Virus record (IMG/VR): IMGVR_UViG_3300002498_000029
Reading direction: 5' to 3' (one strand)
DNA length: 64,000 nt
From: an uncultured virus (IMG/VR IMGVR_UViG_3300002498_000029)
Lineage: Duplodnaviria > Heunggongvirae > Uroviricota > Caudoviricetes
Part shown: piece after piece, positions 1-64,000 of the stretch
Layout of the letters: each line of letters begins with the position of its first letter
How positions within the stretch are numbered: the first letter of the stretch is position 1
Notes under the pieces: generated by a model
Seen by the model: the letters and a program-made list of their open reading frames with translations, nothing else
Database searches by the model: none
What the model was told of the DNA's origin: nothing
Program-made: the position numbers and the translations under genes

Positions 1-2
1 AA

Positions 3-254
3 TTATATGGTATATAGTTATATGAAAATCAATTACAGTTTACAGTAAATAACTTATTATTGTATAGATAGTTGGTTGGTTAGCCATGATTGAAATTATG
101 CTGTATAGTAGATAATTTATCTTATATAGCATGCTGTATTATAAATAGTAAAGAATAGTATTAGTAGATTTTACGTGATTAGTCTATGATATATTCTATA
201 AATTTTTATTCAATAAATTTAAATAATGTTAAACATAAATATGTAATTTAGTAA
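3..254 (+). CDS. 3' part of a recoded hypothetical protein (runs off the window start)
   Basis: Frame 3 is open to TAA at 252-254 when TAG=E and TGA=W (LYGIELYENQ...SKEEYEEILRDES...). Confidence 0.6.
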
Positions 255-265
255 AAGGTTATAAA

Positions 266-1612
266 ATGATAATTTCTCGATTTGCACCTTCACCAACGGG
301 AACATCTGGTATGCATATAGGTAATTTAAGAACAGCATTATATAGCTACTTATATGCAAAGCAAAATAATGGTAAATTTATTCTTAGAATAGAAGATACA
401 GATAAGGAGCGATCAAATGATTTAGCTCTTAATGATATTCATAATATATTAAATATGTTTAACATTATTCCAGATGAAGAGTATATACAGTCTAAAAGAT
501 TATCAATCTATAGATATTATGCTCATAAACTTATTGCGATGGGATATGCATATGCTTGTACTTGTACTGATAATGAAGAATATAAAGATTGTAAATGTCG
601 ATTAAAACCAGATATTGATCCCATTACAAATTGTTGTATTAGATTAAGTATTCCTTGGTATAAGAGTAAACAAAATTTTGAATATGATATTGTATTGGAT
701 ACGGTGTCATGTTATGATCAAATTAGAAAAGATAAAATAAATATAAAGTATGAAGAGTTATATGACATAGTATTACTAAAGTCTGATGGATACCCAACCT
801 ATCATCTTGCATCTGTAGTTGATGATCATTTAATGAATATTACAGATATTTTTCGTGGTGATGAATGGCTCTCATCGTTTCCATATCATATAATATTATA
901 TAATGCATTTAAATGGAATATACCAAAATTTTATCATTTACCGCTTATTACTAATGATTGTGGTGAAAAGCTGTCTAAACGAGATGGAGATTTTTCAGTA
1001 AAGGCATTATTATCAAAAGGAATATTACCTTCAGCTATTTTAAATTATATTGCATTATTAGGGTGGCATCCTTCTGGTAATGATGAAATATTTAATATGG
1101 ATAAACTATTAAAGGACTTTAGTGTTGAAAGATTATCTAAAAGTTCTGCATGTTATGATGAGAAAAAATTAAATAAGTTTAATCTAATACATAGTAGAAC
1201 AGATATTGGTAAAAAAGAGTTTAAATTAATGCTAAATAATAAGGATGATATTTTATTAGAGAGATTGTATATTATATTTAAAGACGGAATAAACATTAAT
1301 GAATTGATTTCAAATATCAATAATAGTTCTAGTGTTATAGATTGGACACCAAGATTAAATGAATTTTTTAAAAGTTTAAGTAACTTGATTTATCGTCTAC
1401 CATATGTTAATCATGCTGCTGAATTAATTACTGATAGTGACATTGATAAGATACTTAGTGAACTTGAGATTGCAGGATATAGTAGGAAAGAGATTAATGA
1501 GTGGATTAGACTTGCACTAACAGGATCGGTGATAGGTTTGCCAGCTAGGACACTATTAGGTATACTTTATACAGTTACATTAACATTTAAAATACGTCAT
1601 TATATTTTATAA
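266..1612 (+). CDS. gltX: Glutamyl-tRNA synthetase (class I), TAG/TGA-free
   Basis: RFAPSPTG..HIGN, LRIEDTD, DGYPTYHLASVVDDH, RGDEW and KLSKR motifs; ends TAA. Confidence 0.93.
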   Translation: MIISRFAPSPTGTSGMHIGNLRTALYSYLYAKQNNGKFILRIEDTDKERSNDLALNDIHNILNMFNIIPDEEYIQSKRLSIYRYYAHKLIAMGYAYACTCTDNEEYKDCKCRLKPDIDPITNCCIRLSIPWYKSKQNFEYDIVLDTVSCYDQIRKDKINIKYEELYDIVLLKSDGYPTYHLASVVDDHLMNITDIFRGDEWLSSFPYHIILYNAFKWNIPKFYHLPLITNDCGEKLSKRDGDFSVKALLSKGILPSAILNYIALLGWHPSGNDEIFNMDKLLKDFSVERLSKSSACYDEKKLNKFNLIHSRTDIGKKEFKLMLNNKDDILLERLYIIFKDGININELISNINNSSSVIDWTPRLNEFFKSLSNLIYRLPYVNHAAELITDSDIDKILSELEIAGYSRKEINEWIRLALTGSVIGLPARTLLGILYTVTLTFKIRHYIL

Positions 1613-1622
1613 AGAGGTTAAA

Positions 1623-1964
1623 ATGGGATAGTACACACAAATAATATAGTTCTTAAAATTACACTTAGATTTAAATAATTAGGACATTAAATGGAATTTA
1701 AGATAGTTATAGCAATTAGATAAACCTAACTTATATGAAGAATAGTTATAGGATAAAATATAGTAGTTATAGGATAAAATATAGTAGTTATAGGATAAAA
1801 TATAGTAGTTATAGGAAGAAAAATAGGGTTTATAGGAATAGAAGGATGAGCTATAGGATAAAATATATGACTTATAGAAATAGGTAAGAATACTAAAGGA
1901 AGAAAAATATAAACTACAGGAACAGCTGATATAGTTAAAAGATTATTTATCTTAGTGTATTTAA
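1623..1964 (+). CDS. Acidic coiled-coil protein (recoded)
   Basis: With TAG=E it reads ...EELEDKIEELEDKIEELEDKIEELEEEKEGLEEEKDELEDKIYDLEKE..., a clean heptad pattern; GAGG RBS upstream; ends TAA. Confidence 0.8.
1743..1805 (+). repeat. 21-bp tandem repeat x3 (tagttataggataaaatatag), in-frame coding heptad ELEDKIE
   Basis: Direct inspection of 1743-1763, 1764-1784 and 1785-1805. Confidence 0.9.
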
Positions 1965-1971
1965 AACTAAT

Positions 1972-2001
1972 TGTGATATTACTCTACGGTTATAATATAA
2001 T
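1972..2001 (+). promoter_or_regulatory. Phage promoter TGTGATA-N17-TATAAT
   Basis: One of 11 copies with identical spacing, upstream of a gene start. Confidence 0.75.
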
Positions 2002-2029
2002 AAATGTATTAAACTTAAGGAGATCTACA

Positions 2030-5229: not shown

Positions 5230-5595
5230 ATGAAGATATTGATATTAGAGGATGATAATAATAGAATAAATATATTTATAAAAAAATTAAAAGAGCATGA
5301 TTTAGATATAACAGATAATAGTTCAATTGCAATAGAATACTTAACGAATAATAATTATGACTATTTGTTCTTAGATCATGATTTAGGTGGATTACAAAAT
5401 GAATGGAATGAAGAAGATTGTGGAATGTGTGTAGTTGATTATTTGTGTAATTTACCTGATAGTAGTAAACTATTAAATATGTATTGTGTAGTTCATTCAT
5501 TTAATACATACAGAGCTGAAATTATGAATAGTAGATTACAAAAAGCTGGCTATAAATCACAATATTGCCCAGGTGCTTGGGAAAAATTAGAATAA
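5230..5595 (+). CDS. Receiver-like domain protein (cyclic-phosphate processing REC type)
   Basis: MKILILEDD...LFLDHDLG...VVHSFN pattern. Confidence 0.65.
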   Translation: MKILILEDDNNRINIFIKKLKEHDLDITDNSSIAIEYLTNNNYDYLFLDHDLGGLQNEWNEEDCGMCVVDYLCNLPDSSKLLNMYCVVHSFNTYRAEIMNSRLQKAGYKSQYCPGAWEKLE

Positions 5596-5599
5596 TAAG

Positions 5600-5629
5600 T
5601 GTGATAACTTTCATGAGTTATAGTATAAT
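5600..5629 (+). promoter_or_regulatory. Phage promoter TGTGATA-N17-TATAAT
   Basis: Repeated motif, upstream of ligA. Confidence 0.75.
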
Positions 5630-5661
5630 AGAATTATAAATAGAAATTAAGAGGTTGTAGA

Positions 5662-7557
5662 ATGCACACTAAAGATGAAAAGCTTTACCTTAAATATAAA
5701 GAAGCTTATTATAATAGTATTCCACTAGTATCTGATGATGTTTTTGATGCATTAGAAGAAAAGATTAGGAGAGAAAATCCTAATAGTTCAGTATTAAATA
5801 TAGTGGGCTCTACTAGTTCATTTCCTTATCTTATCAAACATGATAAAGAAATGTTATCATTAAATAAGACATATAGTATAGATGAATTATTTAAATGGAT
5901 GGGTACTAATGAAATTTGCTATAGTTATAAATTAGATGGTATGGCGGTTAGTCTTATATATAATAGCACTCAGGGATTAGTATTGGCTAAAACACGTGGT
6001 GATGGTGTTTATGGAAAAAATATTACTGAAAATTTTAAATATATTCATATTCCTAATATAAAGAGTGATATAGAAGTTCGTGGTGAAGTTATTATTACTA
6101 AAAACAATTTTACTAAGCTTATTGATGAATGTAATACTCGTAATTTAGATATACCAACTTCTATGAGAAATGCAGTAGCAGGACTACTTAATCCTAATAA
6201 AAAACATGATATAGATCTTGCTAAATATTTAAATTTTTATGCTTATGATTTAATATGTAGTAATATTATAGTTAGTGAAACAAATATGTTTTATCAATTA
6301 CATGACTTTGGATTTGATAATCCATTTAAAGGTTACCTAAAATCAAATGAAGTAACACTTGAAACAATACGATCTATTATTAAACAATATAAGGAAACAA
6401 AAGATGATGTATATTTTCTTACAGATGGTCTTGTATTTAGTATTGATGCACGAAAGATTCAAGAACAAATGGGATCAACTTCGCATCACCCTAAAGGCAA
6501 AATGGCATTTAAACTTCAAAACGAACAAGGTGTAACTACTGTAAATAGTATTACATATGATGTTGGTAAGAATGGTAAAGTAAGTTTTGTTGCTAATGTT
6601 GAGCCAATTTTACTATCAGGTGCTATTATTAAAAATGTCACACTACATAATGCAAAATATATTATAGATAATGAAATAAATATTGGAAGTAAAATAAATA
6701 TTATTAGGTCTGGTGAGGTTATTCCAAAGTTTTTATCTATTGCTGATAATAGTAATGTTAAAGATTATTATAGTCTACCGACGTTGTGCCCATCTTGTAA
6801 TAGTATGTTAAACTGGTCTTCTACTAATACAGATTTAGTATGTGATAATATTAAATGTAATAGACAAATATTAAAATCTATTATTCATTGGTGTAAAACT
6901 ATTGAAATTGATGGAGTTAGTGAAGGTATTTTATCTTATTTATATGAAATTAAGTTAATTACAAATTATAAAGATATTTATAAATTAACAGAAGTAGATA
7001 TTAGATATTTACCCGGGTTTGGTGAAACTTCTGCATATAATATTATTACTGCAATAGACAATAGAAAAAATATTAACTGTGATAGATTCGTAATTGGATT
7101 AAATATGTCAGGTGTAGGTAAAGGAACAGCTAAGGATATTATGACATATTATAAAACAATTGATAATTTTATAGCCCATTGCAATGATATTGCTGGATTA
7201 TGTAAAATTGATGGTATTGGAGAAACTACAGCTTGGACAATATGTAATAATAGTGATTATATTAGAGAAGAGTACAATGCTTTAATTAAATTAGGAATTA
7301 ATATTATAGATAATTATAATATAGTTAAGAATAAGTCACTATCATTTTGTGTCACCGGAACATTATCAAAGGGTAGAAGTGATATTCATAAAGATATAGA
7401 ACAAGCTGGATATGTTGCGAGTTCTGGTGTTACTAAAGATTTAGATTATTTAGTATGTAATGATGTTAGTTCAAACAGTAGTAAAGTTAAAAATGCATAT
7501 AAACATAATATTAAAATAATAACAGAAAAACAGTTATATGAATTATTAAGGGGGTAA
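5662..7557 (+). CDS. ligA: NAD-dependent DNA ligase, TAG/TGA-free
   Basis: MLSL, KLDG adenylation motif, TRGDG, EVRGE, RSGEVIP, CPSC zinc finger, HhH motifs, C-terminal BRCT. Confidence 0.95.
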   Translation: MHTKDEKLYLKYKEAYYNSIPLVSDDVFDALEEKIRRENPNSSVLNIVGSTSSFPYLIKHDKEMLSLNKTYSIDELFKWMGTNEICYSYKLDGMAVSLIYNSTQGLVLAKTRGDGVYGKNITENFKYIHIPNIKSDIEVRGEVIITKNNFTKLIDECNTRNLDIPTSMRNAVAGLLNPNKKHDIDLAKYLNFYAYDLICSNIIVSETNMFYQLHDFGFDNPFKGYLKSNEVTLETIRSIIKQYKETKDDVYFLTDGLVFSIDARKIQEQMGSTSHHPKGKMAFKLQNEQGVTTVNSITYDVGKNGKVSFVANVEPILLSGAIIKNVTLHNAKYIIDNEINIGSKINIIRSGEVIPKFLSIADNSNVKDYYSLPTLCPSCNSMLNWSSTNTDLVCDNIKCNRQILKSIIHWCKTIEIDGVSEGILSYLYEIKLITNYKDIYKLTEVDIRYLPGFGETSAYNIITAIDNRKNINCDRFVIGLNMSGVGKGTAKDIMTYYKTIDNFIAHCNDIAGLCKIDGIGETTAWTICNNSDYIREEYNALIKLGINIIDNYNIVKNKSLSFCVTGTLSKGRSDIHKDIEQAGYVASSGVTKDLDYLVCNDVSSNSSKVKNAYKHNIKIITEKQLYELLRG

Positions 7558-7559
7558 AG

Positions 7560-8030
7560 TTGTGTATTAAAGAAAAAGAATTAAGTTGTGGTGGATTAAT
7601 TTATAGCACTAATAATGAAATTTTAATTACAAGAAGTACTAACAATAAATATTGGAATATACCTAAAGGTATTATTGAAAAAGATGAAACACCATTACAA
7701 TGTGCTATACGAGAAATTAAAGAAGAAACAAATATAGATGTAAGTAGTTGTTTATGTATAGATATTGGAGAACATGAATATTTATCATATAAAAATTTAC
7801 ACTTATTTATATTTGTATTACATCATATACCAGTTGATATAAAATGCAATTCAATATTTTTAACTAAAAAGGGTATTAGTTTGCCAGAGATATCTGATTT
7901 TAAATGGTGTAGGGTTGATGAAGCTAAATTATTATGGAGTCCTAATTTTATGAATACTATAAATAGTGTTATTAAATACGTAAAAGACTCTAAATTATAT
8001 TATACATATTCAATACTTAATGGAGACTAA
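7560..8030 (+). CDS. Nudix hydrolase
   Basis: Nudix box PKGIIEKDETPLQCAIREIKEETN. Confidence 0.9.
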   Translation: MCIKEKELSCGGLIYSTNNEILITRSTNNKYWNIPKGIIEKDETPLQCAIREIKEETNIDVSSCLCIDIGEHEYLSYKNLHLFIFVLHHIPVDIKCNSIFLTKKGISLPEISDFKWCRVDEAKLLWSPNFMNTINSVIKYVKDSKLYYTYSILNGD

Positions 8031-8031
8031 T

Positions 8032-8931
8032 ATGAAACAAGTAGTAATAATTGATGGTGTAGAATATACTCCAAAAATAAAAGAATCTAGCGTAAGTCAT
8101 GATTATCCGTTACTTACCTATGCTAGTCCTGGTGATTTATGCCTGCGTAGAACGGGTATATATTCTGAATTTCATTCTAAACACAAGTTACATGATAATA
8201 CTATACGATATTATTTGGCTGATTGTCTTGGAAGTACTGATGTTTATGGCAAATGTGAAGATAACTTAATCACGGAAAATGATATTATACATTACGAACC
8301 ACTTGCGCCGAGAGGTACAATGAAGTGGGCTGGTCAAAAAATGTTATTAGGCTATACTGTTACCAAGGATATATATTATATATATTTTATTAAAGATGGA
8401 ATTGTTATGTATAAAACCCTCGAATCTGGTGATACTAGTATAGCTGTAACATCAGATCCATTTAAGTGGACATCAAATGATGAAAATTGGAAAATTTATA
8501 CACCGGCGTTAAAGCCTAATTTTGGTGTTAAGCCTGGTGATTATGTGGAAATATATGGAAATCAATATCTAATCACTGGTAAGCCGTATATTGAGGATAA
8601 CGATTGGTTGTGCAATAATATATTTGGTAACCAGGAAAAATATCATGAGAGTGATATTACTCGTGTATTATCTTCATTTGAAGTTGAAGTTAATTTTGGG
8701 TTTGGTAGATACTTAATATATCAAACACCAGTCGATGAACCTAATTGGGTAAGAATTAGACGTAGACACTATAATGGAAATAGTTTAGATGGCTCTAGAA
8801 TAAATATAACAGAAAATGGTCATATTTATTATGATGTCGGTAGAATATCTATACCACAAATACAAAATACTAACACAGTTAAAATTATACAATCATTACT
8901 TTTAAAACAGCATGGAGAATACAATGAATAA
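8032..8931 (+). CDS. Hypothetical protein, TAG/TGA-free
   Basis: Long ORF; GGAG RBS favours ATG 8032 over 8020. Confidence 0.6.
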   Translation: MKQVVIIDGVEYTPKIKESSVSHDYPLLTYASPGDLCLRRTGIYSEFHSKHKLHDNTIRYYLADCLGSTDVYGKCEDNLITENDIIHYEPLAPRGTMKWAGQKMLLGYTVTKDIYYIYFIKDGIVMYKTLESGDTSIAVTSDPFKWTSNDENWKIYTPALKPNFGVKPGDYVEIYGNQYLITGKPYIEDNDWLCNNIFGNQEKYHESDITRVLSSFEVEVNFGFGRYLIYQTPVDEPNWVRIRRRHYNGNSLDGSRINITENGHIYYDVGRISIPQIQNTNTVKIIQSLLLKQHGEYNE

Positions 8932-9472: not shown

Positions 9473-10990
9473 ATGTCACTATTTTACAATCAAATACAAC
9501 AAGCTCTCAATGAAAAAGATGTAGAGAATCGTTATAGAGAATTGCTGTCATCGTTATTTAAAGGATCTATTCTACAATCCCCTGGTTCTATAGATGGGTA
9601 TTTGACATATAAGAATATAAATATGTTGATGGAATTTAAGTATAATATTGACTTAAGTAAGAAAACTGCGCAATGTGTTATATTGGTTCAAATGTTATAT
9701 TATATTAAACAGATGCAAATTAAAGGTGAAGTAATACCTAATGTGCTATTTATTGGTGATTTGAACGAGTTTGCAATTATTCATAGTGAGGTTATATCTA
9801 AGTATTTGTCTGATAATACTATAAATTGGAATATTGCTCCGTCTCAAGCTCCGTCATTAAATAAAGATCTTATATTAAAGATGTATAATGATGACAATAT
9901 AAATTTTGCAGTATTTAATATAGCTAAAGATATAGATATCAATAATATAAGAGATCAAATACATAATGTAGCTATAAGCGGTTCTGTAGTAAGAACTAAG
10001 ATTACTTCATATAATATTGAAAAGGTATTTGATGTCTTTACTAACAATATTATAAAGAATAAAGCTAAGTATAACGCAAATCAATTAGTCAGTATCTTTA
10101 TAAACCTTATTACTAATCCGTATGAAAACTATATTCATCCTAAGAAAAACAACGTTTTAGTAACACCGTCTGGTGATGTTAATGTTGATGGTAGACTTAT
10201 GAGTGCTTTGTTTTTAAAGTATGAAGATGTTTATAGCCCTAAAGAGAAAGAAGAGTTAGTTGCTACTTGTGATAGGCTTATAACTGATTATGATAGGAGA
10301 ATGAAGGGTGAATTTTATACTCCTACTATTTGGGTTGATGAAGCTCATAGAGAAATTTGCAAAGTATTTGGTAATGATTGGAAAGAAAAGTATGTAGTAT
10401 GGGATCCTGCATGGGGTACTGGGAACTTAACACGAGATTATAACTTTAAAGAGTTGTATTGTAGTACGTTAAATCAAAGTGATATTGATATTGCAAATCA
10501 AAATGGTATAAATATGAATAGTATTAAGTTTCAATATGACTTTTTGAATGATGGGGTAGATGATAAAGGTGTGTTTTTAGATAAGAAACTGCCAGACGGG
10601 TTGAAGAAAGCTTTTGAAGAGGGTAGAGAAGTTATTGTATTTATGAATCCGCCTTATGCTACAAATAAATCAGCCGAATCATATAAAACAGAAGGTTCAA
10701 GAACTGATAATGAAAAAACAAAATTATCAGATATAATGGACAATATGGGACAGGCATCAGCTAATTTATATGCTCAATTTCTTTATAAAGCAATATTGCT
10801 TAATACTAAATATGGTGGAGTTAAATTAAATTTTTTTAGTCCAGAAGGATTTACAGTAAAACCTCAATTTTCAAAATTTCGCAAGTGTTTTTATAATACA
10901 TTTAAATTTAACACTGGTTTTGTATTTAATGCATCAGAATTTTCTGGTGTTGAGATGAATTGGCCAATTGCATTTACAATTTGGAGTTAA
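9473..10990 (+). CDS. Type IIG-like restriction-modification protein: N-terminal PD-(D/E)XK domain plus amino-methyltransferase
   Basis: DGYL..MEFK nuclease-like motif; GEFYTP, VVWDPAWGTGNL (motif I), NPPY (motif IV). Confidence 0.8.
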   Translation: MSLFYNQIQQALNEKDVENRYRELLSSLFKGSILQSPGSIDGYLTYKNINMLMEFKYNIDLSKKTAQCVILVQMLYYIKQMQIKGEVIPNVLFIGDLNEFAIIHSEVISKYLSDNTINWNIAPSQAPSLNKDLILKMYNDDNINFAVFNIAKDIDINNIRDQIHNVAISGSVVRTKITSYNIEKVFDVFTNNIIKNKAKYNANQLVSIFINLITNPYENYIHPKKNNVLVTPSGDVNVDGRLMSALFLKYEDVYSPKEKEELVATCDRLITDYDRRMKGEFYTPTIWVDEAHREICKVFGNDWKEKYVVWDPAWGTGNLTRDYNFKELYCSTLNQSDIDIANQNGINMNSIKFQYDFLNDGVDDKGVFLDKKLPDGLKKAFEEGREVIVFMNPPYATNKSAESYKTEGSRTDNEKTKLSDIMDNMGQASANLYAQFLYKAILLNTKYGGVKLNFFSPEGFTVKPQFSKFRKCFYNTFKFNTGFVFNASEFSGVEMNWPIAFTIWS

Positions 10991-10991
10991 G

Positions 10992-11921
10992 ATGATAAAG
11001 CTAGATGTAAGAGAGTTCAACAGAGAATCATTAGAGATTGAGACAGTTGATGTTGTTGAAAAGTTAAACAATGATGGATCAAAGTATAAGTCATTAGCGG
11101 ATTGGGTAAAAGAAGTTACGAATAAAAAGGCTGATGAAGAGTTGTATTATGGCTTAAAGAATGCAATAACATTGGGCAAAAACATAAAAAAGAATTATAA
11201 AGATCGTATTGGTGTTATTTTGTCAAATGGAAATAATTGTCAATATAATATCACGCATACTGCAATATTATCTAAAAGTTTTGATAGTGGTGGGTCTAGC
11301 AGAATATTTATTGATAATAATAATTTTGATAGAGCAATAATGTCTTATTCTGTTAAATCTCTTATTGAACCTACTTGGTTAAACAATAATGATGAGTATT
11401 TTGTCCCAGATTTTGATAATGTAGATAATGATTCATATAAACAATTTGTAAATGATTGTACTATTTATTCAATATTTAGTTTACAGTCTTCGATGAGAGG
11501 ATTATCAAATTATGATAGTGAAGTATTTAACATAGAAAATCAATGGTTCTGGTTATCAAATAAAGAAATGCAAGACTTATCTAATCAATATAATTTTGAT
11601 GAATTATACCAAGACACAAAAACATTCTCACAAGATAGATTCATCTACAATAAACTAAATGAGATTCAATTATCACCAGATGCTTTAGCTGTATTAGAAA
11701 AAGCAAAAGAATTAGTAAGGAACTCTTTCAAATATCGTCAAATAATGCATGACGAACACCCAGAATATCATCTTCAAACATGGGATGCTGGTTGGTACCA
11801 AATTAAGAAGATATTAAAAGAATATATGAAAGATGATTTAAAAGAATTTAACATTATGTATAAGAGTTTTGCAGATAGACTTAGACCTTATGTGTATGAA
11901 TTTGGGTTTTTGAGGAAGTAA
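10992..11921 (+). CDS. Probable C-terminal or specificity part of the R-M enzyme, encoded as a separate ORF
   Basis: Starts 2 nt after the MTase stop; WDAGWYQIK-type C-terminus; TAG/TGA-free. Confidence 0.55.
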   Translation: MIKLDVREFNRESLEIETVDVVEKLNNDGSKYKSLADWVKEVTNKKADEELYYGLKNAITLGKNIKKNYKDRIGVILSNGNNCQYNITHTAILSKSFDSGGSSRIFIDNNNFDRAIMSYSVKSLIEPTWLNNNDEYFVPDFDNVDNDSYKQFVNDCTIYSIFSLQSSMRGLSNYDSEVFNIENQWFWLSNKEMQDLSNQYNFDELYQDTKTFSQDRFIYNKLNEIQLSPDALAVLEKAKELVRNSFKYRQIMHDEHPEYHLQTWDAGWYQIKKILKEYMKDDLKEFNIMYKSFADRLRPYVYEFGFLRK

Positions 11922-13057: not shown

Positions 13058-14239
13058 ATGCAAACATCAGAAAGATATCTTGTCATGATAACAGAAGCTA
13101 ATAATAATAAATTCTATCATATGAAGCCTAGCGGTTCTCAACTTATTATAGAATATGGTCGTATTGGATCTTCTGTTCGACATGAGACTTATGATATTAG
13201 CAAATTTAATTCTAAATATAATGAAAAGATTAGAAAAGGCTATCAAGATAAAACTGAATTATATATAACTAATACAACTACTTCAACTACAAAACCTATT
13301 AGTGATCTTGCTATTAGAACCTTTATTGACAAGCTTCTTAAGTTTTCAAATGATTCTGTAACAAATAATTATACAGTAAATGCTAAGAATGTTACTCAAG
13401 CTCAAATTGATCAAGCTCAAATGATTATTAATAATATATCAAAGGAATCTAAATATAGCATAGATCCAGTTGAAATAAATAATTTACTTATTGACTTATA
13501 TCATGTATTACCCCGTAAAATGAATAATGTCAATAATTATCTTATTAAATCTAATGATGCTAAAGTATTACAAAATATGCTAGTTAGAGAACAAGATCTT
13601 CTAGATTCATTGGCTTCTAGTATGTCAGTGGCTAATGCTCAACAATCTCAAACTACTCAAGATCAAAACATATTAGACATTCTTGGTATTGAAGTAAATC
13701 ATTGCACTGATGAGCAAATTGAGCAAATTAAAAACCATATGGGACAAACTAAAGATAGATTTTCACAAGCTTATGTAGTAAATCATAAAAAGCAATCTGA
13801 ATTATTTGAATCATTGCAAACTACTAAAAAAGAATTACTTTGGCATGGTACTCGTAATGAAAACGTAATATCAATACTTCAAAAATCATTACAAATTAGG
13901 CCAGCTGGAGCAATTATTACTGGCGCGATGTTTGGTGGAAATGGAATATATTTTGCCGATAAGGCTATTAAATCTACTGGATATACATCTACTAGTGGAT
14001 CATATTGGGCTAGAGGAACTAGTAGTATTGGGTATCTTATGGTATTTGAAGTAGCAGTTGGTAATCAAAAACATATTTATAAACATGATAGCTCATGTTA
14101 TAAATTAAATAAAAAAGACCTTAATGCTGAAGGATTTGATAGCGTATTTGCCCATGGTGGTGTAGATTTAAAGAATAATGAATTTATAATTTATTCAACA
14201 GACCAATGTAAAATTAAATATATTATAGAAATAAAATAA
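13058..14239 (+). CDS. PARP-like ADP-ribosyltransferase (WGR + regulatory + catalytic domains), TAG/TGA-free
   Basis: NNNKFY..EYGRIG WGR domain; LLWHGT, GAMFG.GIYFA, NEFIIY (H-Y-E triad). Confidence 0.88.
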   Translation: MQTSERYLVMITEANNNKFYHMKPSGSQLIIEYGRIGSSVRHETYDISKFNSKYNEKIRKGYQDKTELYITNTTTSTTKPISDLAIRTFIDKLLKFSNDSVTNNYTVNAKNVTQAQIDQAQMIINNISKESKYSIDPVEINNLLIDLYHVLPRKMNNVNNYLIKSNDAKVLQNMLVREQDLLDSLASSMSVANAQQSQTTQDQNILDILGIEVNHCTDEQIEQIKNHMGQTKDRFSQAYVVNHKKQSELFESLQTTKKELLWHGTRNENVISILQKSLQIRPAGAIITGAMFGGNGIYFADKAIKSTGYTSTSGSYWARGTSSIGYLMVFEVAVGNQKHIYKHDSSCYKLNKKDLNAEGFDSVFAHGGVDLKNNEFIIYSTDQCKIKYIIEIK

Positions 14240-19294: not shown

Positions 19295-19771
19295 ATGAAA
19301 TATCAAGATAAGTTATTTATAGATATAGCTAATAGACTTAAATAGCAATCTAATTGTATATCAGTTAAAGTCGGTTGTGTAATTGTTAAAGATAGTAGAA
19401 TTATATCAATGGGATATAACGGTACTCCGGCTAAATATATAAATTGTAGTTAGTACTGAGGTTTAGATTATTTAAATCAATCTAAATAGTATACTATAAA
19501 CAGATAGAAGCACCATAAATGATCTGATATACATGAAATCCATGCAGAAATGAATGCAATATTGTTTGCAGCTAAATAGGGTATATCAATAAATAATAGT
19601 GTATTATATACTACTGTATTTCCTTGTCAGCATTGTTTAAAAAATATTATTCAAGCTGGAATAAAATAGATAGTATATTAGCAATAGTATGATTTAGGAA
19701 TAACAGATTTATCTTTTATGGAATATATTAAAAGAAATATATTAATAAGACAATATATTTAGGAGAAGTAA
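19295..19771 (+). CDS. dCMP deaminase (recoded)
   Basis: VGCVIV..RIISMGYNG, HAEMNA, PCQHC. Confidence 0.9.
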
Positions 19772-21418: not shown

Positions 21419-21901
21419 ATGACAGACCAAGAAATAGATCAAGAAGTAATAGCAATGAAAAAGAAGTATAACAGAATGTATTTGTATATTCTGCTTATTA
21501 GTTTCATTTGCTCAATTCCATTTAATGTATTTTTACTTAGAGCGGATTGGAATAAAGATAATTCAATAGAACTATTACAACAAAAAAATCCATCTGGTTA
21601 TACTAAGTGGCAACAAGATCGTATTGACCCAACTGTTGCTACTGGTGAAACTCCAGAAATGAGGTATTTTAATACTCCATTTATATATCTCTCAGCCTTT
21701 CTGAGTATACCATTTTATTGCTTAATAGGTATGATTATATTATCATTCTATTGGTTAGGTGCATTTTTCATGTGGTTACCTAGAATATTGCAATATTTAA
21801 TTGTGGCTGCAATATATCTTGCTACAATGCTTTATGCTGCACTATGGTTAAATGTACTAGTAGATAAAATAAAGGGAAAGTCAAAAATAAAAACATCGTA
21901 A
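21419..21901 (+). CDS. Multi-pass membrane protein, TAG/TGA-free
   Basis: Three hydrophobic segments; AAGGAG RBS. Confidence 0.65.
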   Translation: MTDQEIDQEVIAMKKKYNRMYLYILLISFICSIPFNVFLLRADWNKDNSIELLQQKNPSGYTKWQQDRIDPTVATGETPEMRYFNTPFIYLSAFLSIPFYCLIGMIILSFYWLGAFFMWLPRILQYLIVAAIYLATMLYAALWLNVLVDKIKGKSKIKTS

Positions 21902-21911
21902 TTAAAATAAT

Positions 21912-21941
21912 TGTGATAATTTTCAATAGTTATGATATAAT
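21912..21941 (+). promoter_or_regulatory. Phage promoter TGTGATA-N17-TATAAT
   Basis: Repeated motif. Confidence 0.75.
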
Positions 21942-56646: not shown

Positions 56647-57633
56647 ATGTTAAGAACTGCAGAATTTGTAACTCCAATGCATCCTGATAAAATTTGTGAC
56701 AGAATAGCAGATGCAATATTAGATTAGTGTTTAAAACAAGATAAATAGTCTAGATGTGCTATTGAAGTAATGGGTGGTCATGGTATTATAACTGTTACTG
56801 GATAGATAACTACAAATGCGTATGTTAATATTCAATAGGTAGTTAAAGAAGTATATGGTAAATAGATTGGAGTGCAAGTAAATATAGTAAAACAATCTAA
56901 TTTTATATCTCAAGGCGTAGATATTGGTGGAGCGGGTGATCAAGGAATAATGATTGGGTATGCTTGTAATTAGAATAGTTAGATGGTACCACAAGAATAT
57001 TATATGGCAAGAGATCTATGTAAATATTTATTCAAAAAATATCCATATGATGGTAAAACACAAATCACTATAAATTAGAATGATGAAATTGTATGTGCCA
57101 TAGCTAGCTTCCAGAATGCAAATAAGTTTATGTTGGAAGATGAGATAAAAATATGGGCAACTACAAGTGGATTCGAATTTGCACAATTATTCGACATTAA
57201 ATGTAATCCTGCTGGAGATTGGACTCAAGGTGGATTTGATGCTGATACTGGTGTTACTGGTAGAAAGATTGTCGTAGATGCATATGGACCAAGAGTGCCG
57301 GTTGGTGGCGGATGTTACAGCTCGAAAGACAAAAGTAAAGTGGATAGATCCGCCGCTTATATGGCAAGATATATTGCAAAACAATTATGCAGAGAATATA
57401 AAGCTGATTAGGTAATGGTAAAGTTAGCATATGCTATTGGATATAATCAACCATTAGAAGTTAGTGCATATTTCAACAATAAATATGATGATGATTTATC
57501 TAGTGCAATAAAATAGAACTATGACTTATCACCTAAGGGTATTATAGAATTTTTAAACCTTAAATAGTTTACTGAATATAGTAAGACTGCTGAATGGGGA
57601 CATTATGGTAATGGATTTAATTGGGACAAATAA
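56647..57633 (+). CDS. metK: S-adenosylmethionine synthetase (recoded)
   Basis: [44 protein letters not shown]. Confidence 0.92.
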
Positions 57634-59381: not shown

Positions 59382-60383
59382 ATGAATATATTAATAACAG
59401 GAGTAGCAGGATTAATAGGATCTAGATTTGCTAGTTGGGTAGTTGAAAACACTGATAATGTTGTTATTGGAATAGATGATTTAAGTGGTGGATATGTAGA
59501 GAATGTTAATTAGAAGATAATATTTTATAATTTAGAAATATATAAAGATAATATAGAAGGAATATTTAAGAAACATTCAATTGATATAATATATCATTTT
59601 GCAGCTTATGCAGCTTAGTGTCTGTCTCCATTTATACGAACATTTAATTATAGTAACAATCTATTAACTACAACAAAAATGGTTAATTTAGCAATAAATT
59701 ATAATATAAAGAAATTTGTTTTTACTTCAAGTATGGGTGTTTATGGTTTCGGGAACAATAAACCACCGTTTTCTGAAGATATAATACCTGAGCCAATTGA
59801 TCCATATGGTATTGCTAAATATGCCTGTTAGATGGATTTGAAGGTAGCAAATATACAGCATGGATTGAAGTATTGCATAATTAGACCACATAATGTATAT
59901 GGTGTAAATCAAAACATATGGGATAAATATAGAAATGTTTTAGGTATATGAATGTATCAATCTTTAAACAATTTACCATTAACTGTTTTTGGTGAAGGAT
60001 TACAGAGAAGGGCATTTAGTTATATTGATGATATATTAGAATGTTTATGAATAGCGGGTCAAGATAACAGTACAAATGGTGAAATAATAAATTTAGGTGG
60101 TATTGAATCTATATCTATTATGGAAGCCTGTTAGATAGTAAGTTAGATAACAAACAATAAAAACATAAAACATTTATAGCCAAGACATGAAGTCAGAGAA
60201 GCATATCCAACTTGAAAAAAATCTGTTGAATATTTGGGGTTCAAACATAAAACAGATATCGCTGATGGTATATTGCAAATGTGAAATTGGGCTAAAACTC
60301 AACCAAACAGAGAAAGATTTTAGTGGGATAATTTTTAGATAAGCAACAAAATATATTCATATTGAAAAAACAAATATGTATAA
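59382..60383 (+). CDS. NAD-dependent sugar epimerase/dehydratase (recoded)
   Basis: ITGVAGLIGS, DDLSGG, HFAAYAAE, TSSMGVYG, YGIAKYACE, RPHNVYG. Confidence 0.88.
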
Positions 60384-61479
60384 ATATGATTTTTTAATTA
60401 TTGGTGCTGGGTTATTTGGCTCGATTTGCGCATATGAATTGAATAAATTGGGTCTTAAATGCTTGGTTATTGATAAAAGAAAGCATATTGGTGGTAACTG
60501 TTATACAGAAAATTGAAATTCTATAAATATTCATTTATATGGACCGCATATATTTCATACTTCTAATAAACGTATTTGATAGTATGTTAAAAAGCTGAGT
60601 TAGTTTAATAATTTTATTTACACTCCATTAGCAAATAATAATAATGTATTATATCCATTACCATTTAATATGTATACATTTAACAAAATGTGAAATGTAA
60701 ATACACCAAATGAAGCTAGAACTAAAATGCATATTTCAGACAATATAAAGTATAATAATTTAGAATAGAAAGCAATAAGTCAAGTAGGGTAGGAAATATA
60801 TAATTTATTGATAAAGGAGTATACTCAAAAACAATGAATGAAAGATCCTATATAGTTACCTGCATAGATTATTGATAGATTACCAGTTAGATTTACTTAT
60901 AATAACAATTATTATAATGATATATTTCAAGGTATCCCAAAATATGGATATACAGCAATATTTAATAAGTTGTTGTAGAATGTTGATGTTAAACTACAAG
61001 TTGATTATTTGAATAATAGAGAATATTTTAACATGAAAGCAAAAAGTGTAATATATACTGGTCCAATTGATGCTTATTATGATTATTGTTATGGAGATTT
61101 ATAGTATAGGTCATTGTATTTTAAACATGAAAAATTAGATATAGATAATTATCAAGGGACTTCTGTGATTAATTATATAAATATTGATATACCACATACA
61201 AGAATAATAGAACATAAGCATTTTGATATAAACAATAAAACAAACAGTACTTGAATAACTTATGAATATCCTATTAACTATACAAAAGAAATTGGATAGT
61301 ACTATCCAATAAATAGTGATAATAACAATAATACATATAATAAGTATTATTTATTATCACAAAAAGAAAACAACACTTATTTTGGAGGTAGATTGGCAGA
61401 GTATAAATATTATGATATGGATAAAACAATATTATCAGCTTTAAATTTTTTATAGAGTTATTTTAGGAGTAAAAAATAA
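60376..61479 (+). CDS. glf: UDP-galactopyranose mutase, second copy (recoded)
   Basis: IIGAGLFG, IGGNCY, HLYGPHIFHT, YTQKQW, LEYRS, RIIEHKHF, GRLAEYKYYDMD. Confidence 0.9.
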
Positions 61480-61480
61480 T

Positions 61481-62479
61481 ATGAATACATTCAAATATAT
61501 ATATATATTAATTCCAAATAATTGAAGGGCTGGTGGTATTTAGAGTTTATATCAGCTATATTATACACTTAAAAAATTGGAGTGTAATGTAAAGGTCATT
61601 TTATTAGACCACAATATACACCCTCAACGGCACATCAATTGATTATAGTTACACCAAAATAACTTTACATATGAATATGAAGAATGTTATCATAAATATA
61701 ATCTTATATCTGAAGATATTGTTATAAACATTGAAGATAGTAGTTAGAATTTTTTAGTAATACCTGAAATATTTCCAAATATTGTTATGAATTTTAAAAA
61801 TATCAAGACAGGTATTTGATGGTTAAGCGTTGACAATGGATTGGGGTCAGATCAAAATAATGTGGTGTTTTTGAATGATTAGTTTAAACATATTTATCAT
61901 TTTTATCAATCTGAATATGCTCACTGATTTTTAATTAATAACGGATTTTATTATGTCGCTCCATTATGTGATTTTATATAGGAGGACACCTTTCACCAAA
62001 ATGACATGTGCTTACAAAATAAACGAAACAATATCTTGTACAATCCCGCCAAAGGTTTATCTGATTTAATGCTTTTTAAGTAGAAACTGTAGCAGATTAC
62101 TACAGACTATACATTTATACCTATTCAAAATATGTCACATACTCAAATTAGGAATATTATGTTATAGTCAAAGATATATATTGATTTTGGCAATCATCCT
62201 GGAAAAGATAGAATTCCGAGAGAAGCAGCAATGTGTGGTTGTTGTATAATAACAGGCTGAAATGGGTCTGCTCAGTTTTTTGAAGATGTTAATATTGGTG
62301 CACAATTTAAAATAAATATATAGGATAAAGATAACATCAATATGTTGATAAATACGCTAATCAATGTATCAACTAATGATTTTTATAAATATCATATGTA
62401 GTTTTAGTATTATCGTAAACAAATAATGCTACAAAAATAGAAAATGATTTTTAACGTAAAATCTTTTTTTATTAGTTAA
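61481..62479 (+). CDS. Putative glycosyltransferase (recoded)
   Basis: AGGIESLYQL, VIPEI, WWLSVDN, YNPAKG, YIDFGNHPGKDRIPREAA. Confidence 0.7.
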
Positions 62480-62498
62480 ATATTAATTTGGAGAAAAA

Positions 62499-63212
62499 AT
62501 GTATATAATATATAGAATATCTGATTGTGGATATAATAAAGTTAAACCGAGTTACATTAATAATAAAATTTGTTTACAAAACGCATTAAAATAGTTCCCA
62601 ATTAATATATGCAATTGACATATTATAGCAGATAATGTATCAGAGGAAACCAAAAGTATGTTATCAGAATACATACACAATAAAGATTTAATTGAATATG
62701 TATCGGTAGGTCATGGAGCTGGTACCTTTAATGTAGCATTAGATTTTGCTAAAAATAGTATTAATAATAATCATTAGATAGTATATTTTCTGTAGAATGA
62801 TTATTTACACAAACCTCAATCGTTAAAAATATTACAAGAGGGCTTTTCGTTGAACCCTATGTTTGTATCATTATATGACCATCCAGATAAATATATTCCA
62901 CCTACATCAGGTGGTAATCCTTATTGTATTGATGGTGCAGAAGATACAAGAGTATATTTAACAAAATCTTGTCATTGAAAAATTACAAACTCTACAACAA
63001 TGACATTTGCTATTAAAAAAAGTAATTTAGCAATTGTAGAACTGATTTTAAGAAAACATACTTAGGGAACACACCCATATGATTTTGAAATGTTTATTGA
63101 GTTGATGTAGAATGGACATTTATTGATAACACCAATTCCAGGATATTCTACACATGGTGAAACAGCTTGATTAACACCCTTAACGGATTGGAGTCAAATA
63201 TGTTTAGTGTAA
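62499..63212 (+). CDS. Putative GT-A glycosyltransferase (recoded)
   Basis: IIADN, VYFLENDYLH, SLYDHPDKY, STTMTFA, PGYSTHGE. Confidence 0.7.
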
Positions 63213-63253
63213 TTATGCCAAAAAATATAATAATATAAAGGAGAAAAATATTT

Positions 63254-63793
63254 ATGATAACTTATAATTTTTCAAGTGAAAATCCAGATATACATTGACC
63301 ATATATTATTTGTAATACAGATGATATAGGAGTTGATTTAGGTTGTGGAAGATCGCATTTCATACAGCATAGAAGTCCAGACCTATTAACTTCATCATAG
63401 TGATTGAAAAAATGTGGATGTAATTTTGTATATGGGTTTGATATGGACAATAACGAAATAATTTGATTTAATGAAAATTTTAAAGAATAGAAATCTTCTT
63501 ATAGTTTTCATTTGAAGGAAATTAGTAGTATAGATGATATAATATAGATATATGATTAGTGTAAACCCAATGTAATTAAAGCTGATATATAGGGAGCAGA
63601 AATATATATTACACAATTACCAGATTAGATATTTAAAAGAGTACATTGTTATGCAATAGAAACACATAGTACTGATTTATACAATATGTTTATGACAAAA
63701 TTTCAACAATGTAAATATGAAATAACGGCAATAGCTAGATGAAATGATTCTGTACATGTTATATTTGCATAGAAAATTAAAGAAAGTAATTAA
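63254..63793 (+). CDS. FkbM-like SAM-dependent methyltransferase (recoded)
   Basis: VDLGCG, GFD, VIKADIEGAE, AIETH. Confidence 0.65.
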
Positions 63794-63845
63794 TGAAAAA
63801 ACATTTGATATAACACCAAATAAAATACACAATAAGAGATAAAAA

Positions 63846-64000
63846 ATGATTTCAATAATAATACCAAGTTATAAAAACGCAAAATGTTTAGATATATGTT
63901 TAAATTCAATAATACACAATCAAAAATATAATAATGAAATAATTGTTGTTATAGATGGATTTGTTTAGCAATATTCTGAACTTAAGAATAAGTATAATAA
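63846..64000 (+). CDS. GT2 glycosyltransferase, 5' part (runs off the window)
   Basis: MISIIIPSYKN..CLNSI..EIIVVIDG. Confidence 0.75.

What the first reader, a model, noticed from the sequence alone, without database searches (positions are those of the whole stretch)
1..64000. Doubly recoded phage genetic code: TAG=Glu, TGA=Trp, TAA the only stop
Seen in sequence: dozens of genes are interrupted by in-frame TAG and TGA but end in TAA. TAG sits at positions that must be Glu: PolB ExoI D-I-E (25408-25416), RF1 EIRAGTGG (36023) and KYESG, both Glu of the GT4 E-X7-E motif (THGEGYGLPIAEF), TMK FEG.D, helicase WEGV, dNMP kinase RFNNE, nuclease IEFNG, FkbM DIEG. TGA sits at conserved Trp: UGM VWDY, nuclease IWE (TGA TAG), HTH KW, kinase AEWI. 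Established: described recoded phages use TAG=Gln (code 15) or TGA=Trp (code 4). UAG=Glu is known from eukaryotic nuclear codes (peritrich ciliates, Blastocrithidia), where UAA is also reassigned. Inference: TAG=Glu plus TGA=Trp with TAA as sole stop, in a prokaryotic virus, matches no translation table I know.
Basis: partly seen in the sequence, partly recalled or inferred. Interest (0 to 1): 0.98.

Follow-up and report, generated by a model that had tools for sequence, protein, structure and literature searches.

The report
Huge phage reads TAG=Glu, TGA=Trp
This stretch of a very large bacterial virus uses two of the three stop codons as ordinary amino-acid codons (TAG for glutamate, TGA for tryptophan) and ends its genes only with TAA, a genetic code I could not find described for any virus or bacterium.

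Summary
Coding density on the + strand is 21.5% under code 11, 22.6% under code 4, 68.6% under code 15 and 86.5% with TAA as the only stop. Of 87 ORFs, 72 carry 871 in-frame TAG and 104 in-frame TGA. The other 15 carry neither.

A Codetta-like test on profiles from 386 homologues in three families reads TAG as Glu. Over 77 sites, Lys is 35 and Gln 60 log-likelihood units worse. It reads TGA as Trp on 12 sites, with Phe 6.3 units worse. In recoded genes GAA+GAG falls from 5.7% to 3.1% while Gln is unchanged, and TGG+TGA (1.28%) matches Trp in standard-coded genes (1.24%).

A distant relative (L002) shows the same pattern.

The standard-coded set includes a bacterial-type GluRS whose anticodon domain is very divergent in sequence, and a CCA-adding enzyme. 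A phage RF1 homologue has Gln181→Ile in an altered codon-reading loop, which suggests UAA-only termination.

No suppressor tRNA lies in the window. The mechanism is inferred, not shown. I found no published TAG=Glu phage code.

The parts
1..64000 (+). Stretch of a huge phage genome in which 72 of 87 + strand ORFs use TAG (871) and TGA (104) as sense codons, and all ORFs end in TAA
266..1612 (+). Bacterial-type glutamate--tRNA ligase (GluRS), 448 aa, with 0 TAG and 0 TGA. The catalytic core is conserved. The C-terminal anticodon-binding domain is unrecognisable by Pfam but has a canonical fold by language-model features and by the Atlas model
   Evidence: TIGR00464 scores 348 bits against a cut-off of 290, aligned over residues 2-369 only. 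PDB alignments end at about residue 311-323. PF19269 is not found even at E<=10. ESM Atlas gives Anticodon_2 clusters at 0.95 and TM 0.73
22633..24042 (+). CCA-adding tRNA nucleotidyltransferase with HD domain, standard-coded
   Evidence: Pfam PolyA_pol, PolyA_pol_RNAbd and HD. NCBIfam CCA tRNA nucleotidyltransferase models hit, all below their cut-offs. 0 TAG and 0 TGA
35705..36763 (+). Release factor of RF1 type with 22 in-frame TAG and 0 TGA. GGQ and P-x-T are kept. The codon-reading loop is changed: Gln181Ile, Val183Asn, Glu187Asp, Gly190Asp, Ile192Thr (T. thermophilus numbering)
5230..8931 (+). Standard-coded block: cREC receiver domain, NAD-dependent DNA ligase, Nudix hydrolase, one unknown gene
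9473..11921 (+). Standard-coded block of two genes of unknown family. The first carries an NPPY-type motif
13058..14239 (+). Standard-coded WGR + PARP-type ADP-ribosyltransferase
21419..24418 (+). Standard-coded block: membrane protein, an unknown gene, the CCA enzyme, an unknown gene
30840..31940 (+). UDP-galactopyranose mutase 1 (23 TAG, 2 TGA), a test gene for the code
   Evidence: TAG lies at columns E119/120, E119/120 and E116/120. TGA lies at W120/120 and W106/120
60376..61479 (+). UDP-galactopyranose mutase 2 (10 TAG, 5 TGA), a test gene
59382..60383 (+). NAD-dependent epimerase (8 TAG, 5 TGA), a test gene. At 4 of its 5 TGA sites Trp is the top profile emission (Tyr at the fifth), and the family as a whole gives Trp
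27123..28088 (+). NAD-dependent epimerase (14 TAG), a test gene
56647..57633 (+). S-adenosylmethionine synthetase (11 TAG). TAG lies opposite the Glu of GEITT and both Glu of ACDETPELMP in chain 3iml_A
19295..19771 (+). dCMP deaminase (9 TAG, 2 TGA). The TGA at codon 76 lies opposite Trp of phage T4 Cd (chain 1vq2_A)
25039..27111 (+). Family B DNA polymerase, N-terminal part, ending in an intein N-fragment. The ExoI D-I-E glutamate is spelled TAG
33761..34798 (+). Intein C-fragment plus the C-terminal part of PolB (27 TAG)
   Evidence: Translation. The orthologue in L002 hits Intein_splicing and DNA_pol_B

Best explanation
The window is part of a huge tailed phage with a contig of at least 256 kb. 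Most of its genes are written in a code where UAG means glutamate, UGA means tryptophan and UAA is the only stop. That much is shown by sequence statistics.

The following model is inferred:
1. The host reads the standard code.
2. On infection the host can complete only the 15 genes that contain neither TAG nor TGA. These include a bacterial-type GluRS and a CCA-adding enzyme.
3. The phage GluRS has an intact catalytic core, but its anticodon-binding domain has diverged beyond sequence recognition. It charges a phage tRNA with anticodon CUA with glutamate. That tRNA is not in this window.
4. A UCA tRNA is charged with tryptophan.
5. TAG-containing genes can then be completed. One of them is an RF1-type release factor that keeps the A-specific P-x-T tripeptide for the second base. 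At Gln181, the residue that contacts the third base, it has an aliphatic residue as RF2 does. It should therefore release at UAA but not at UAG or UGA.

How the host's own RF1 and RF2 are kept off UAG and UGA is unknown.
For: Code, TAG:
- Profile HMMs were built from homologues only: 120 UGM, 146 RF1 and 120 epimerase sequences.
- They were aligned to 5 window genes with X at TAG and TGA.
- TAG (77 sites) gives Glu. Lys is -35.4, Asp -55.4 and Gln -60.2 lnL. Glu is best in each family taken alone.
- 37 of 41 ordinary codons with at least 5 sites recover their standard meaning, including CAA=Gln and GAA=Glu.
- Raw columns: TAG lies at E119/120, E119/120 and E116/120 in UGM, and at E143/149 and E148/149 in RF.

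Code, TGA:
- TGA (12 sites) gives Trp, with Phe -6.3. The control TGG (9 sites) gives Trp, with Phe -5.1.
- TGA lies at W120/120 in UGM.

Composition:
- Standard-coded genes have Glu 5.69%, Gln 3.07% and Trp 1.24%.
- Recoded genes have GAR 3.10% plus TAG 5.74%, Gln 2.81%, and TGG 0.59% plus TGA 0.69%.

Relative L002:
- It is 39-46% identical over 6 of the 7 aligned ORF pairs and 31% over the seventh.
- Its coding density is 7% under code 11, 60% under code 15 and 90% with TAA only.
- Window TAG pairs with L002 TAG 28, GAA 15, GAT 8, AAA 8 and GAG 3.
- L002 TGA pairs with window TGG 4 and TGA 3.

Machinery:
- GluRS passes the gltX equivalog cut-off and is standard-coded.
- Its C-terminal 144 residues give no Anticodon_2 hit even at E<=10, yet match that domain by features and fold.
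- The RF loop is identical over 27 residues between the window and L002, although the two proteins are 44% identical overall.
- Gln181 is Q in 147 of 149 homologues.
- PMC3974865 (passages) says Gln181 and Thr194 bond the third stop-codon base.
- PMC6821328 (passages) links Gln181 substitutions in algal mtRF1a to UAG becoming a sense codon.
- E. coli RF2 has Val and Asp where the phage factor has Ile181 and Asp187.
- In L002 the RF gene has 0 TAG and 0 TGA.
Against: - No tRNA is found in the window (ARAGORN; Rfam at gathering score and at E<=5) or in L002. The rest of the contig could not be fetched, so the adaptor is unseen.
- TGA rests on only 12 profile sites. The 7 UGM sites alone do not decide (Leu, Phe and Trp lie within 0.4 lnL), and 3 of the 5 TGA in UGM2 sit at columns dominated by Glu, Phe or Thr.
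- There is no protein-level evidence.
- In this window the RF gene itself needs TAG suppression (22 TAG), so it cannot act first.
- PMC12574857 (passages) reports a lineage with Gln181 substituted that still uses UAG as a stop. Gln181 loss alone therefore does not prove UAG blindness.
- Phage GluRS genes also occur in huge phages without this code (about 37-38% identical matches in LR7565xx records). The gene could be an ordinary auxiliary synthetase.
- The host is not identified.
Confidence: 0.8

Rival explanations
1. Ordinary phage code 15 plus code 4: TAG is glutamine. The GluRS acts as a non-discriminating enzyme that loads a tRNA(Gln)-like CUA suppressor with Glu, and the host GatCAB then amidates it to Gln.
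For: TAG=Gln is the only TAG reassignment reported in phages in the papers I read (Borges preprint, passages). A public database already holds this RF translated with Q at every TAG (P0121). One UGM TAG column is Gln-dominated (Q86/E30). T. maritima GluRS2 of the transamidosome is among the PDB matches.
Against: Gln is 60 lnL units worse than Glu over 77 sites, and 18-24 units worse in each of the three families. TAG sits at invariant Glu columns. Glu codons are depleted in recoded genes while Gln codons are not. TAG exchanges with GAA and GAT, not with CAA, between the two relatives.
Confidence: 0.03
2. TAG is Glu, but TGA is not Trp. It could be another residue such as Gly (code 25), Cys or Sec, or rare leaky readthrough.
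For: There are only 12 profile sites. The UGM family alone is undecided, and 3 of 5 UGM2 TGA sites lie at non-Trp columns.
Against: Trp is best overall. Gly is -21.4 and Cys -30.2 lnL. All 5 epimerase sites favour aromatic columns, with Trp the top emission at 4 of them. TGG+TGA in recoded genes (1.28%) equals Trp in standard-coded genes (1.24%). TGA pairs with TGG between relatives. One TGA lies opposite Trp of T4 dCMP deaminase.
Confidence: 0.07
3. The host itself uses this code. The phage merely follows it, and the 15 TAG/TGA-free genes are recent imports from standard-code bacteria.
For: Phages of code-4 and code-25 hosts follow their host's code. Several TAG/TGA-free genes are of cellular type (GluRS, ligase, CCA enzyme). 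Their blocks have slightly higher G+C: 27-29% against 23-26%.
Against: A phage that follows its host would not need its own GluRS and a specially altered release factor. The TAG/TGA-free set also holds small membrane and orphan genes. The coded state of one gene differs between relatives: the RF has 22 TAG here and 0 in L002. I found no description of a bacterium with TAG=Glu.
Confidence: 0.06
4. Artefact or decay: base-calling or assembly errors, or a dead genome full of nonsense mutations.
For: Depth in the public runs is low (about 1-5) and all four runs come from one sample.
Against: The genome is AT-rich, with GAA about 4 times as frequent as GAG in standard-coded genes. Most glutamates would therefore be GAA, which differs from TAG at two bases. 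There are 975 in-frame TAG/TGA but no in-frame TAA within ORFs covering 86.5% of the strand. The codons avoid 15 genes completely. An independent, distantly related contig shows the same pattern. Four separate run assemblies show no other letters.
Confidence: 0.01

Closest known systems
Alternatively coded phages: Lak, crAss-like, Jade, Agate, Garnet and others (Borges et al. preprint 10.1101/2021.08.26.457843, passages read; Peters et al. PMC9523058, abstract only)
   Same: - A low-GC phage with a standard-coded subset of genes and a recoded remainder.
- Phage-borne translation genes.
- The idea that the code gates expression.
   Different: - Those phages recode one stop codon each. The authors state that they saw only TAG->Gln and TGA->Trp in phages whose code differs from the host's.
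- Here both codons are recoded in the same genes and TAG is Glu.
- DNA-replication and nucleotide-metabolism genes are recoded here as well.
Code-change module of the Jade phages: suppressor tRNA + TrpRS + RF1, all in standard code (same preprint, passages)
   Same: - A phage synthetase that matches the newly assigned amino acid, written in standard code.
- A phage release factor. In the relative L002 the RF is also in standard code.
   Different: - The synthetase is GluRS with a sequence-divergent anticodon domain.
- The release factor has an altered codon-reading loop rather than being an ordinary RF1.
- The genes are not adjacent: GluRS lies at 266 and the RF at 35705.
- No tRNA has been seen yet.
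Blastocrithidia nuclear code (NCBI table 31) and peritrich ciliate code (table 30); table contents recalled, not from a call
   Same: UAG=Glu. In table 31, also UGA=Trp.
   Different: - In those eukaryotic codes UAA shares the meaning of UAG. Here UAA stays the stop and is split from UAG.
- The release machinery is bacterial RF1 type here, not eRF1.
Ochre, an engineered E. coli with UAA as its sole stop codon (PMC11903333, passages read)
   Same: - UAG and UGA are freed for amino acids and UAA is the only stop.
- It needs a release factor restricted to UAA.
   Different: - Ochre is man-made. It relies on RF1 deletion and on RF2 with S205P/E170K.
- Here the state is natural, the factor is of RF1 type with RF2-like residues at positions 181 and 187, and a virus imposes it.
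mtRF1a of Scenedesminia green algae with Gln181 substituted where mitochondrial UAG became a sense codon (PMC6821328, passages; caveat in PMC12574857, passages)
   Same: An RF1-family factor that has lost Gln181 in a system where UAG is a sense codon.
   Different: - That factor is organellar.
- UAG there is not Glu.
- The phage loop carries four further changes, all conserved between two distant relatives.

Membership tests
NCBI translation table 15 (TAG=Gln; TGA and TAA stop) | TAG aligns with glutamine | tested here: not met
   Gln is -60.2 lnL against Glu over 77 sites. Gln is the commonest residue in 1 of 33 UGM TAG columns, and Glu in 19 of 33.
NCBI translation table 15 (TAG=Gln; TGA and TAA stop) | TGA terminates genes | tested here: not met
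   There are 104 in-frame TGA. Coding density is 68.6% under code 15 against 86.5% with TAA only.
NCBI translation table 4 (TGA=Trp; TAG and TAA stop) | TGA aligns with tryptophan | tested here: met
   Trp is best over 12 sites, with Phe -6.3. Columns W120/120 and W106/120. Composition agrees. The data set is thin.
NCBI translation table 4 (TGA=Trp; TAG and TAA stop) | TAG terminates genes | tested here: not met
   There are 871 in-frame TAG. Coding density under code 4 is 22.6%.
NCBI table 31 / table 30 (UAG and UAA = Glu) | TAG = Glu | tested here: met
NCBI table 31 / table 30 (UAG and UAA = Glu) | TAA is also read as Glu | tested here: not met
   ORFs bounded by TAA alone cover 86.5% of the strand, with a median gap of 9 nt. 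The test proteins end at TAA with homologue-like lengths.
Alternatively coded phage with a code-change module (Borges et al.) | A subset of genes free of the recoded codons, next to recoded genes | tested here: met
   15 genes (4098 codons) have 0 TAG and 0 TGA. The other 72 genes have TAG at 5.74% of codons.
Alternatively coded phage with a code-change module (Borges et al.) | Phage aminoacyl-tRNA synthetase for the newly assigned amino acid, in standard code | tested here: met
   GluRS at 266-1612: TIGR00464 scores 348 bits against a cut-off of 290, with 0 TAG/TGA.
Alternatively coded phage with a code-change module (Borges et al.) | Suppressor tRNA(s) with anticodon CUA / UCA | tested here: inconclusive
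   None in the 64 kb or in L002. About 190 kb of the contig could not be reached.
Bacterial release factor 1 (prfA) | PCRF and RF-1 domains, GGQ, P-x-T tripeptide | tested here: met
   Pfam PCRF 1.3e-36 and RF-1 4.4e-31. GGQ and P-I-T are visible in the sequence.
Bacterial release factor 1 (prfA) | NCBIfam equivalog score for prfA | tested here: not met
   TIGR00019 scores 306 bits against a cut-off of 423. NF001859 scores 311 against 400.
Bacterial release factor 1 (prfA) | Conserved third-base reader Gln181 and loop H-R-V-Q-R-V-P-x-T-E-x-x-G-R-I/V-H-T-S | tested here: not met
   Ile at position 181, where 147 of 149 homologues have Gln. Also Asn183, Asp187, Asp190 and Thr192.
Bacterial glutamate--tRNA ligase (gltX) | NCBIfam equivalog score; class I signature motifs | tested here: met
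   TIGR00464 is above its cut-off. The HIGH-type and KLSKR motifs align with solved GluRS.
Bacterial glutamate--tRNA ligase (gltX) | Recognisable anticodon-binding domain (Pfam PF19269) | tested here: not met
   No PF19269 hit at E<=10 on residues 305-448. Only fold- and feature-level likeness: ESM Atlas 0.95 and TM 0.73.

The most novel reading that the evidence does not exclude
A natural one-stop-codon genetic code that a huge phage imposes on a standard-code host. It would work through an orthogonal GluRS/tRNA(CUA) pair and an RF1/RF2-hybrid-like release factor restricted to UAA. Three translational tiers would act as an infection timer: genes with neither codon, genes with TAG only, and genes with TAG and TGA.
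Probability: 0.35. Interest if true: 0.97.

Novelty: new variant of a known kind. Interest (0 to 1): 0.9.

Why it matters
Stop-codon recoding in phages is known only as TAG->Gln or TGA->Trp, one codon at a time. Both are thought to be easy because host GlnRS and TrpRS accept suppressor tRNAs.

This case differs in four ways:
- **It breaks that rule.** A phage that reads TAG as Glu shows that a virus can install a reassignment that probably needs its own synthetase.
- **It separates UAG from UAA.** It leaves a cell-like translation system with a single stop codon, a state so far reached only by genome engineering (Ochre).
- **It offers ready-made parts.** A GluRS with a re-targeted anticodon domain and a candidate UAA-only release factor could serve genetic code expansion.
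- **It exposes a database error.** At least one public protein collection translates this phage with Gln at every TAG. Proteins of such phages may therefore be systematically mistranslated, including at catalytic glutamates.

Tried and rejected
Whole genome and extension of the window:
- No genome is held for this window.
- An exact 39-base stretch from the window end was absent from viral contigs and metagenome contigs.
- Megablast of 24 kb against GenBank phages found nothing.
- GluRS found no relative in viral contigs.
- The record behind L002 is not held for whole-record search.
- The relative's RF (P0124) is not in the GenBank phage set above 46% identity.
- As a result, the rest of the 256.6-kb contig and the 467-kb relative contig could not be scanned for tRNAs.

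Search for the RF motif elsewhere:
- Degenerate DNA patterns for the variant RF loop found nothing in genome contigs or viral contigs.
- The RF alignment in viral contigs gave only one 25%-identical locus.
- Of the 64 metagenome loci in which the loop pattern could be read, 63 have the ordinary Gln-181 loop and only L002 has the variant. The pattern was not found in L066-L069.

Homologue search: the ThyX-like gene at 32182-33051 (29 TAG, 6 TGA) returned no homologues, probably because the many X break the words.

RNA: no RNA holder is listed among the sequencing runs.

PHROGs: no virion gene was recognised among 39 proteins, so 'tailed phage' rests on replication-gene matches of about 25% identity to large myoviruses.

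Papers not held: Korostelev 2010 and the RF2 structure paper. The role of Val203 in RF2 is therefore recalled, not read.

Not done:
- I did not fold the GluRS or the RF.
- I did not map the GluRS residue that reads anticodon base 36.

Earlier notes of this scan, searched by place and by sequence, gave nothing.

Supplementary tables of the Borges preprint (release factors and synthetases per clade) could not be seen. They might list further synthetases.

Full report
**What is there.** The window has 25% G+C and almost all its genes lie on the + strand.
- Under the bacterial code only 10 ORFs reach 150 aa. With TAG and TGA read as sense codons, 56 do.
- ORFs of at least 100 aa cover 21.5% of the + strand under code 11, 22.6% under code 4, 68.6% under code 15 and 86.5% when TAA is the only stop.
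- With TAA as the only stop, the median gap between genes is 9 nt.
- My working gene set has 87 + strand ORFs: the 87, minus two doubtful ORFs, plus two standard-code ORFs. Of these, 72 contain 871 in-frame TAG and 104 in-frame TGA, and 15 (4098 codons) contain neither.
- TAG and TGA are evenly spread along the ORFs (KS p = 0.65 and 0.22).

**Meaning of TAG.** I translated TAG and TGA as X and collected homologues:
- 120 UDP-galactopyranose mutases.
- 150 release-factor representatives.
- 120 epimerases.

From the release factors I dropped four rows. P0121 is this very protein, translated by some pipeline with Q at every TAG. P0122 and P0123 carry internal duplications. P0124 is the clade relative.

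Profile HMMs built from homologues only were aligned to five window genes. For every codon I summed the log emission probabilities of each amino acid.
- TAG (77 sites) comes out as Glu. Lys is 35.4, Asp 55.4 and Gln 60.2 units worse.
- Glu wins in each family on its own.
- Of 41 ordinary codons with at least 5 sites, 37 recover their standard meaning, among them GAA=Glu and CAA=Gln. ATT, ATC, ATG and TGT go to a similar residue instead.
- In raw columns, TAG sits at E119/120, E119/120 and E116/120 in the mutase, and at E143/149 and E148/149 in the release factor.
- Glu is the commonest residue in 19 of 33 mutase TAG columns, and Gln in 1.
- In solved structures, TAG lies opposite the Glu of GEITT and both Glu of ACDETPELMP in SAM synthetase 3iml_A.

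**Meaning of TGA.** The evidence is thinner.
- Twelve sites give Trp, with Phe 6.3 units worse. The TGG control on 9 sites behaves alike.
- The five epimerase sites give Trp clearly as a set.
- The seven mutase sites do not decide, and three of them lie at Glu-, Phe- or Thr-dominated columns.
- One TGA lies opposite Trp in phage T4 dCMP deaminase.

**Composition.**
- Standard-coded genes have Glu 5.69%, Gln 3.07% and Trp 1.24%.
- Recoded genes have GAA+GAG 3.10% plus TAG 5.74%, Gln 2.81%, and TGG 0.59% plus TGA 0.69%.
- Glu codons are therefore replaced while Gln codons are not, and TGG+TGA adds up to the normal Trp content.
- In this AT-rich genome most glutamates would be GAA, which is two changes away from TAG. 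A base-calling artefact would therefore not produce the pattern.

**A relative.** One metagenome contig, L002 (21.5 kb), carries the same gene order: PolB-N, PolB-C, nuclease, RF. Identity is 39-46% over 6 of the 7 aligned ORF pairs and 31% over the seventh.
- Its coding density is 7% under code 11, 10% under code 4, 60% under code 15 and 90% with TAA only.
- Window TAG codons pair with L002 TAG (28), GAA (15), GAT (8), AAA (8) and GAG (3).
- L002 TGA pairs with window TGG (4) and TGA (3).
- The code is thus a property of a clade.
- The window's GluRS and RF are on record on a contig of 256,585 bases, and the relative's RF on 8 contigs of up to 467,452 bases. These are huge phages.
- Replication proteins match large myoviruses at only about 25% identity.
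- A T9SS sorting domain and Flavobacteriia among the few named mutase homologues hint at a Bacteroidota host. This is inference.

**Machinery: standard-coded genes.** The 15 genes free of TAG and TGA include:
- A bacterial-type GluRS (TIGR00464 at 348 bits, cut-off 290).
- A CCA-adding enzyme.
- An NAD ligase, a Nudix hydrolase and a PARP-like ADP-ribosyltransferase.
- Several orphans.

The GluRS catalytic core aligns with solved GluRS up to about residue 311-323. Its last 144 residues give no Anticodon_2 match even at E<=10. They nevertheless resemble that domain by language-model features (0.95) and by the Atlas model (TM 0.73). The anticodon is a major identity element for GluRS; this is established knowledge that I recall, not from a call. 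A re-targeted anticodon domain is what a tRNA(CUA) charged with Glu would need. This is inference.

**Machinery: the release factor.**
- It is of RF1 type but scores below the prfA cut-offs.
- Aligned to T. thermophilus RF1 (chain 4v4r_AY), it keeps Gly116, Glu119, Pro184-x-Thr186, His193 and Thr194.
- It has Ile for Gln181, Asn183, Asp187, Asp190 and Thr192.
- Gln181 is Q in 147 of 149 homologues. The two exceptions are the relative P0124 and P0262.
- The 27-residue loop is identical between the window and L002, although the proteins are only 44% identical overall.
- PMC3974865 (passages) states that Thr194 and Gln181 bond the third stop-codon base.
- PMC6821328 (passages) ties Gln181 substitution in algal mtRF1a to UAG becoming a sense codon.
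- PMC12574857 (passages) warns that one lineage with the substitution still stops at UAG.
- E. coli RF2 has Val and Asp where the phage factor has Ile181 and Asp187.
- The factor thus combines the RF1 tripeptide with RF2-like neighbours. I read this as restriction to UAA, which is inferred and untested.
- In L002 the RF gene is standard-coded. Here it carries 22 TAG and no TGA.

**A possible third tier.**
- TGA use is uneven. Thirty-five TAG-containing genes have 0 TGA against 50 TGG, while 37 genes have 104 TGA against 40 TGG.
- None of 5000 permutations reached the observed heterogeneity.
- The split into these two groups was made after seeing the data. Only the heterogeneity test itself stands.

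**What is missing.**
- No tRNA is found in the window or in L002, and the rest of the genome could not be reached.
- It is unknown how host RF1 and RF2 are kept from UAG and UGA.
- There is no protein evidence.

**Literature.**
- Six full-text searches found no report of TAG=Glu, or of joint TAG and TGA recoding, in a phage or bacterium.
- The Borges preprint (passages) says only TAG->Gln and TGA->Trp were seen in phages whose code differs from the host's.
- Ochre (PMC11903333, passages) is the engineered counterpart with one stop codon.

**Earlier notes of this scan.** These AI notes are unchecked and I did not test them. They claim TAG=Glu with a tRNA(Glu)-like CUA suppressor in several rumen or gut phages. 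None mentions joint TGA recoding, a GluRS or an altered release factor.

**Verdict.** This is a new variant of phage stop-codon recoding, with a plausible but unproven mechanism.

Noticed in passing
25039-27111 and 33761-34798; L002 4892-6985 and 7990-8997: The family B DNA polymerase is split into two genes. The first ends in an intein N-fragment and the second begins with an intein C-fragment (…VHNS). The halves lie 6.6 kb apart here, with sugar- and nucleotide-metabolism genes between them, and about 1 kb apart in the relative. This looks like a trans-splicing split intein conserved in the clade.
   Followed up: partly
2329-3784 (+) and 52635-54199 (-): There are two copies of a small HTH gene followed by a TnpB/OrfB_IS605-like gene. 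The two HTH proteins are clearly alike. Both elements use TAG and TGA as sense codons, so these mobile elements are adapted to the phage's code. The second TnpB gave no PHROG hit and was not scanned against Pfam, because one search failed as a whole. I judged its kinship by eye only.
   Followed up: partly
13058-15570: A standard-coded WGR+PARP gene is followed by a recoded homing-endonuclease-like ORF (14292-15290). After that comes a standard-coded 103-aa copy of the PARP C-terminus (15259-15570). This looks like the footprint of a homing-endonuclease insertion with target duplication.
   Followed up: no
35705-36763 (protein P0121 in the public collection): A public protein collection holds this release factor translated with Gln at all 17 TAG positions of its 330-aa version, which is code 15 applied by a pipeline. 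The two invariant glutamates are therefore recorded as Gln.
   Followed up: yes
1623-1964 and 11927-12589: These are coiled-coil-like repeat proteins extremely rich in TAG: 24 TAG in 113 codons, and 23 in 220. As Glu, the TAGs give EDKIEELEDKIEEL-type repeats.
   Followed up: no
27123-31940, 38079-44106, 57770-63793: There are three clusters of glycan genes: two UDP-galactopyranose mutases, two epimerases, and GT4, GT2 and FkbM-like genes. That is an unusually large sugar-modification load for a phage.
   Followed up: no
45984-46310: A small secreted protein with a T9SS C-terminal sorting domain (Por_Secre_tail, E 2.3e-11). This is a hint that the host is a member of the Bacteroidota.
   Followed up: no
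protein P0262 (release-factor representative): Another RF1 homologue, unrelated to this clade's loop, also has Ile at the Gln181 position, and Ser at Thr194. It may mark a further lineage with altered UAG reading.
   Followed up: no
49994-51466: A 490-aa orphan gene uses TAG for 19 of 51 Glu but has 10 TGG and no TGA. It is the clearest example of the TAG-only class.
   Followed up: partly
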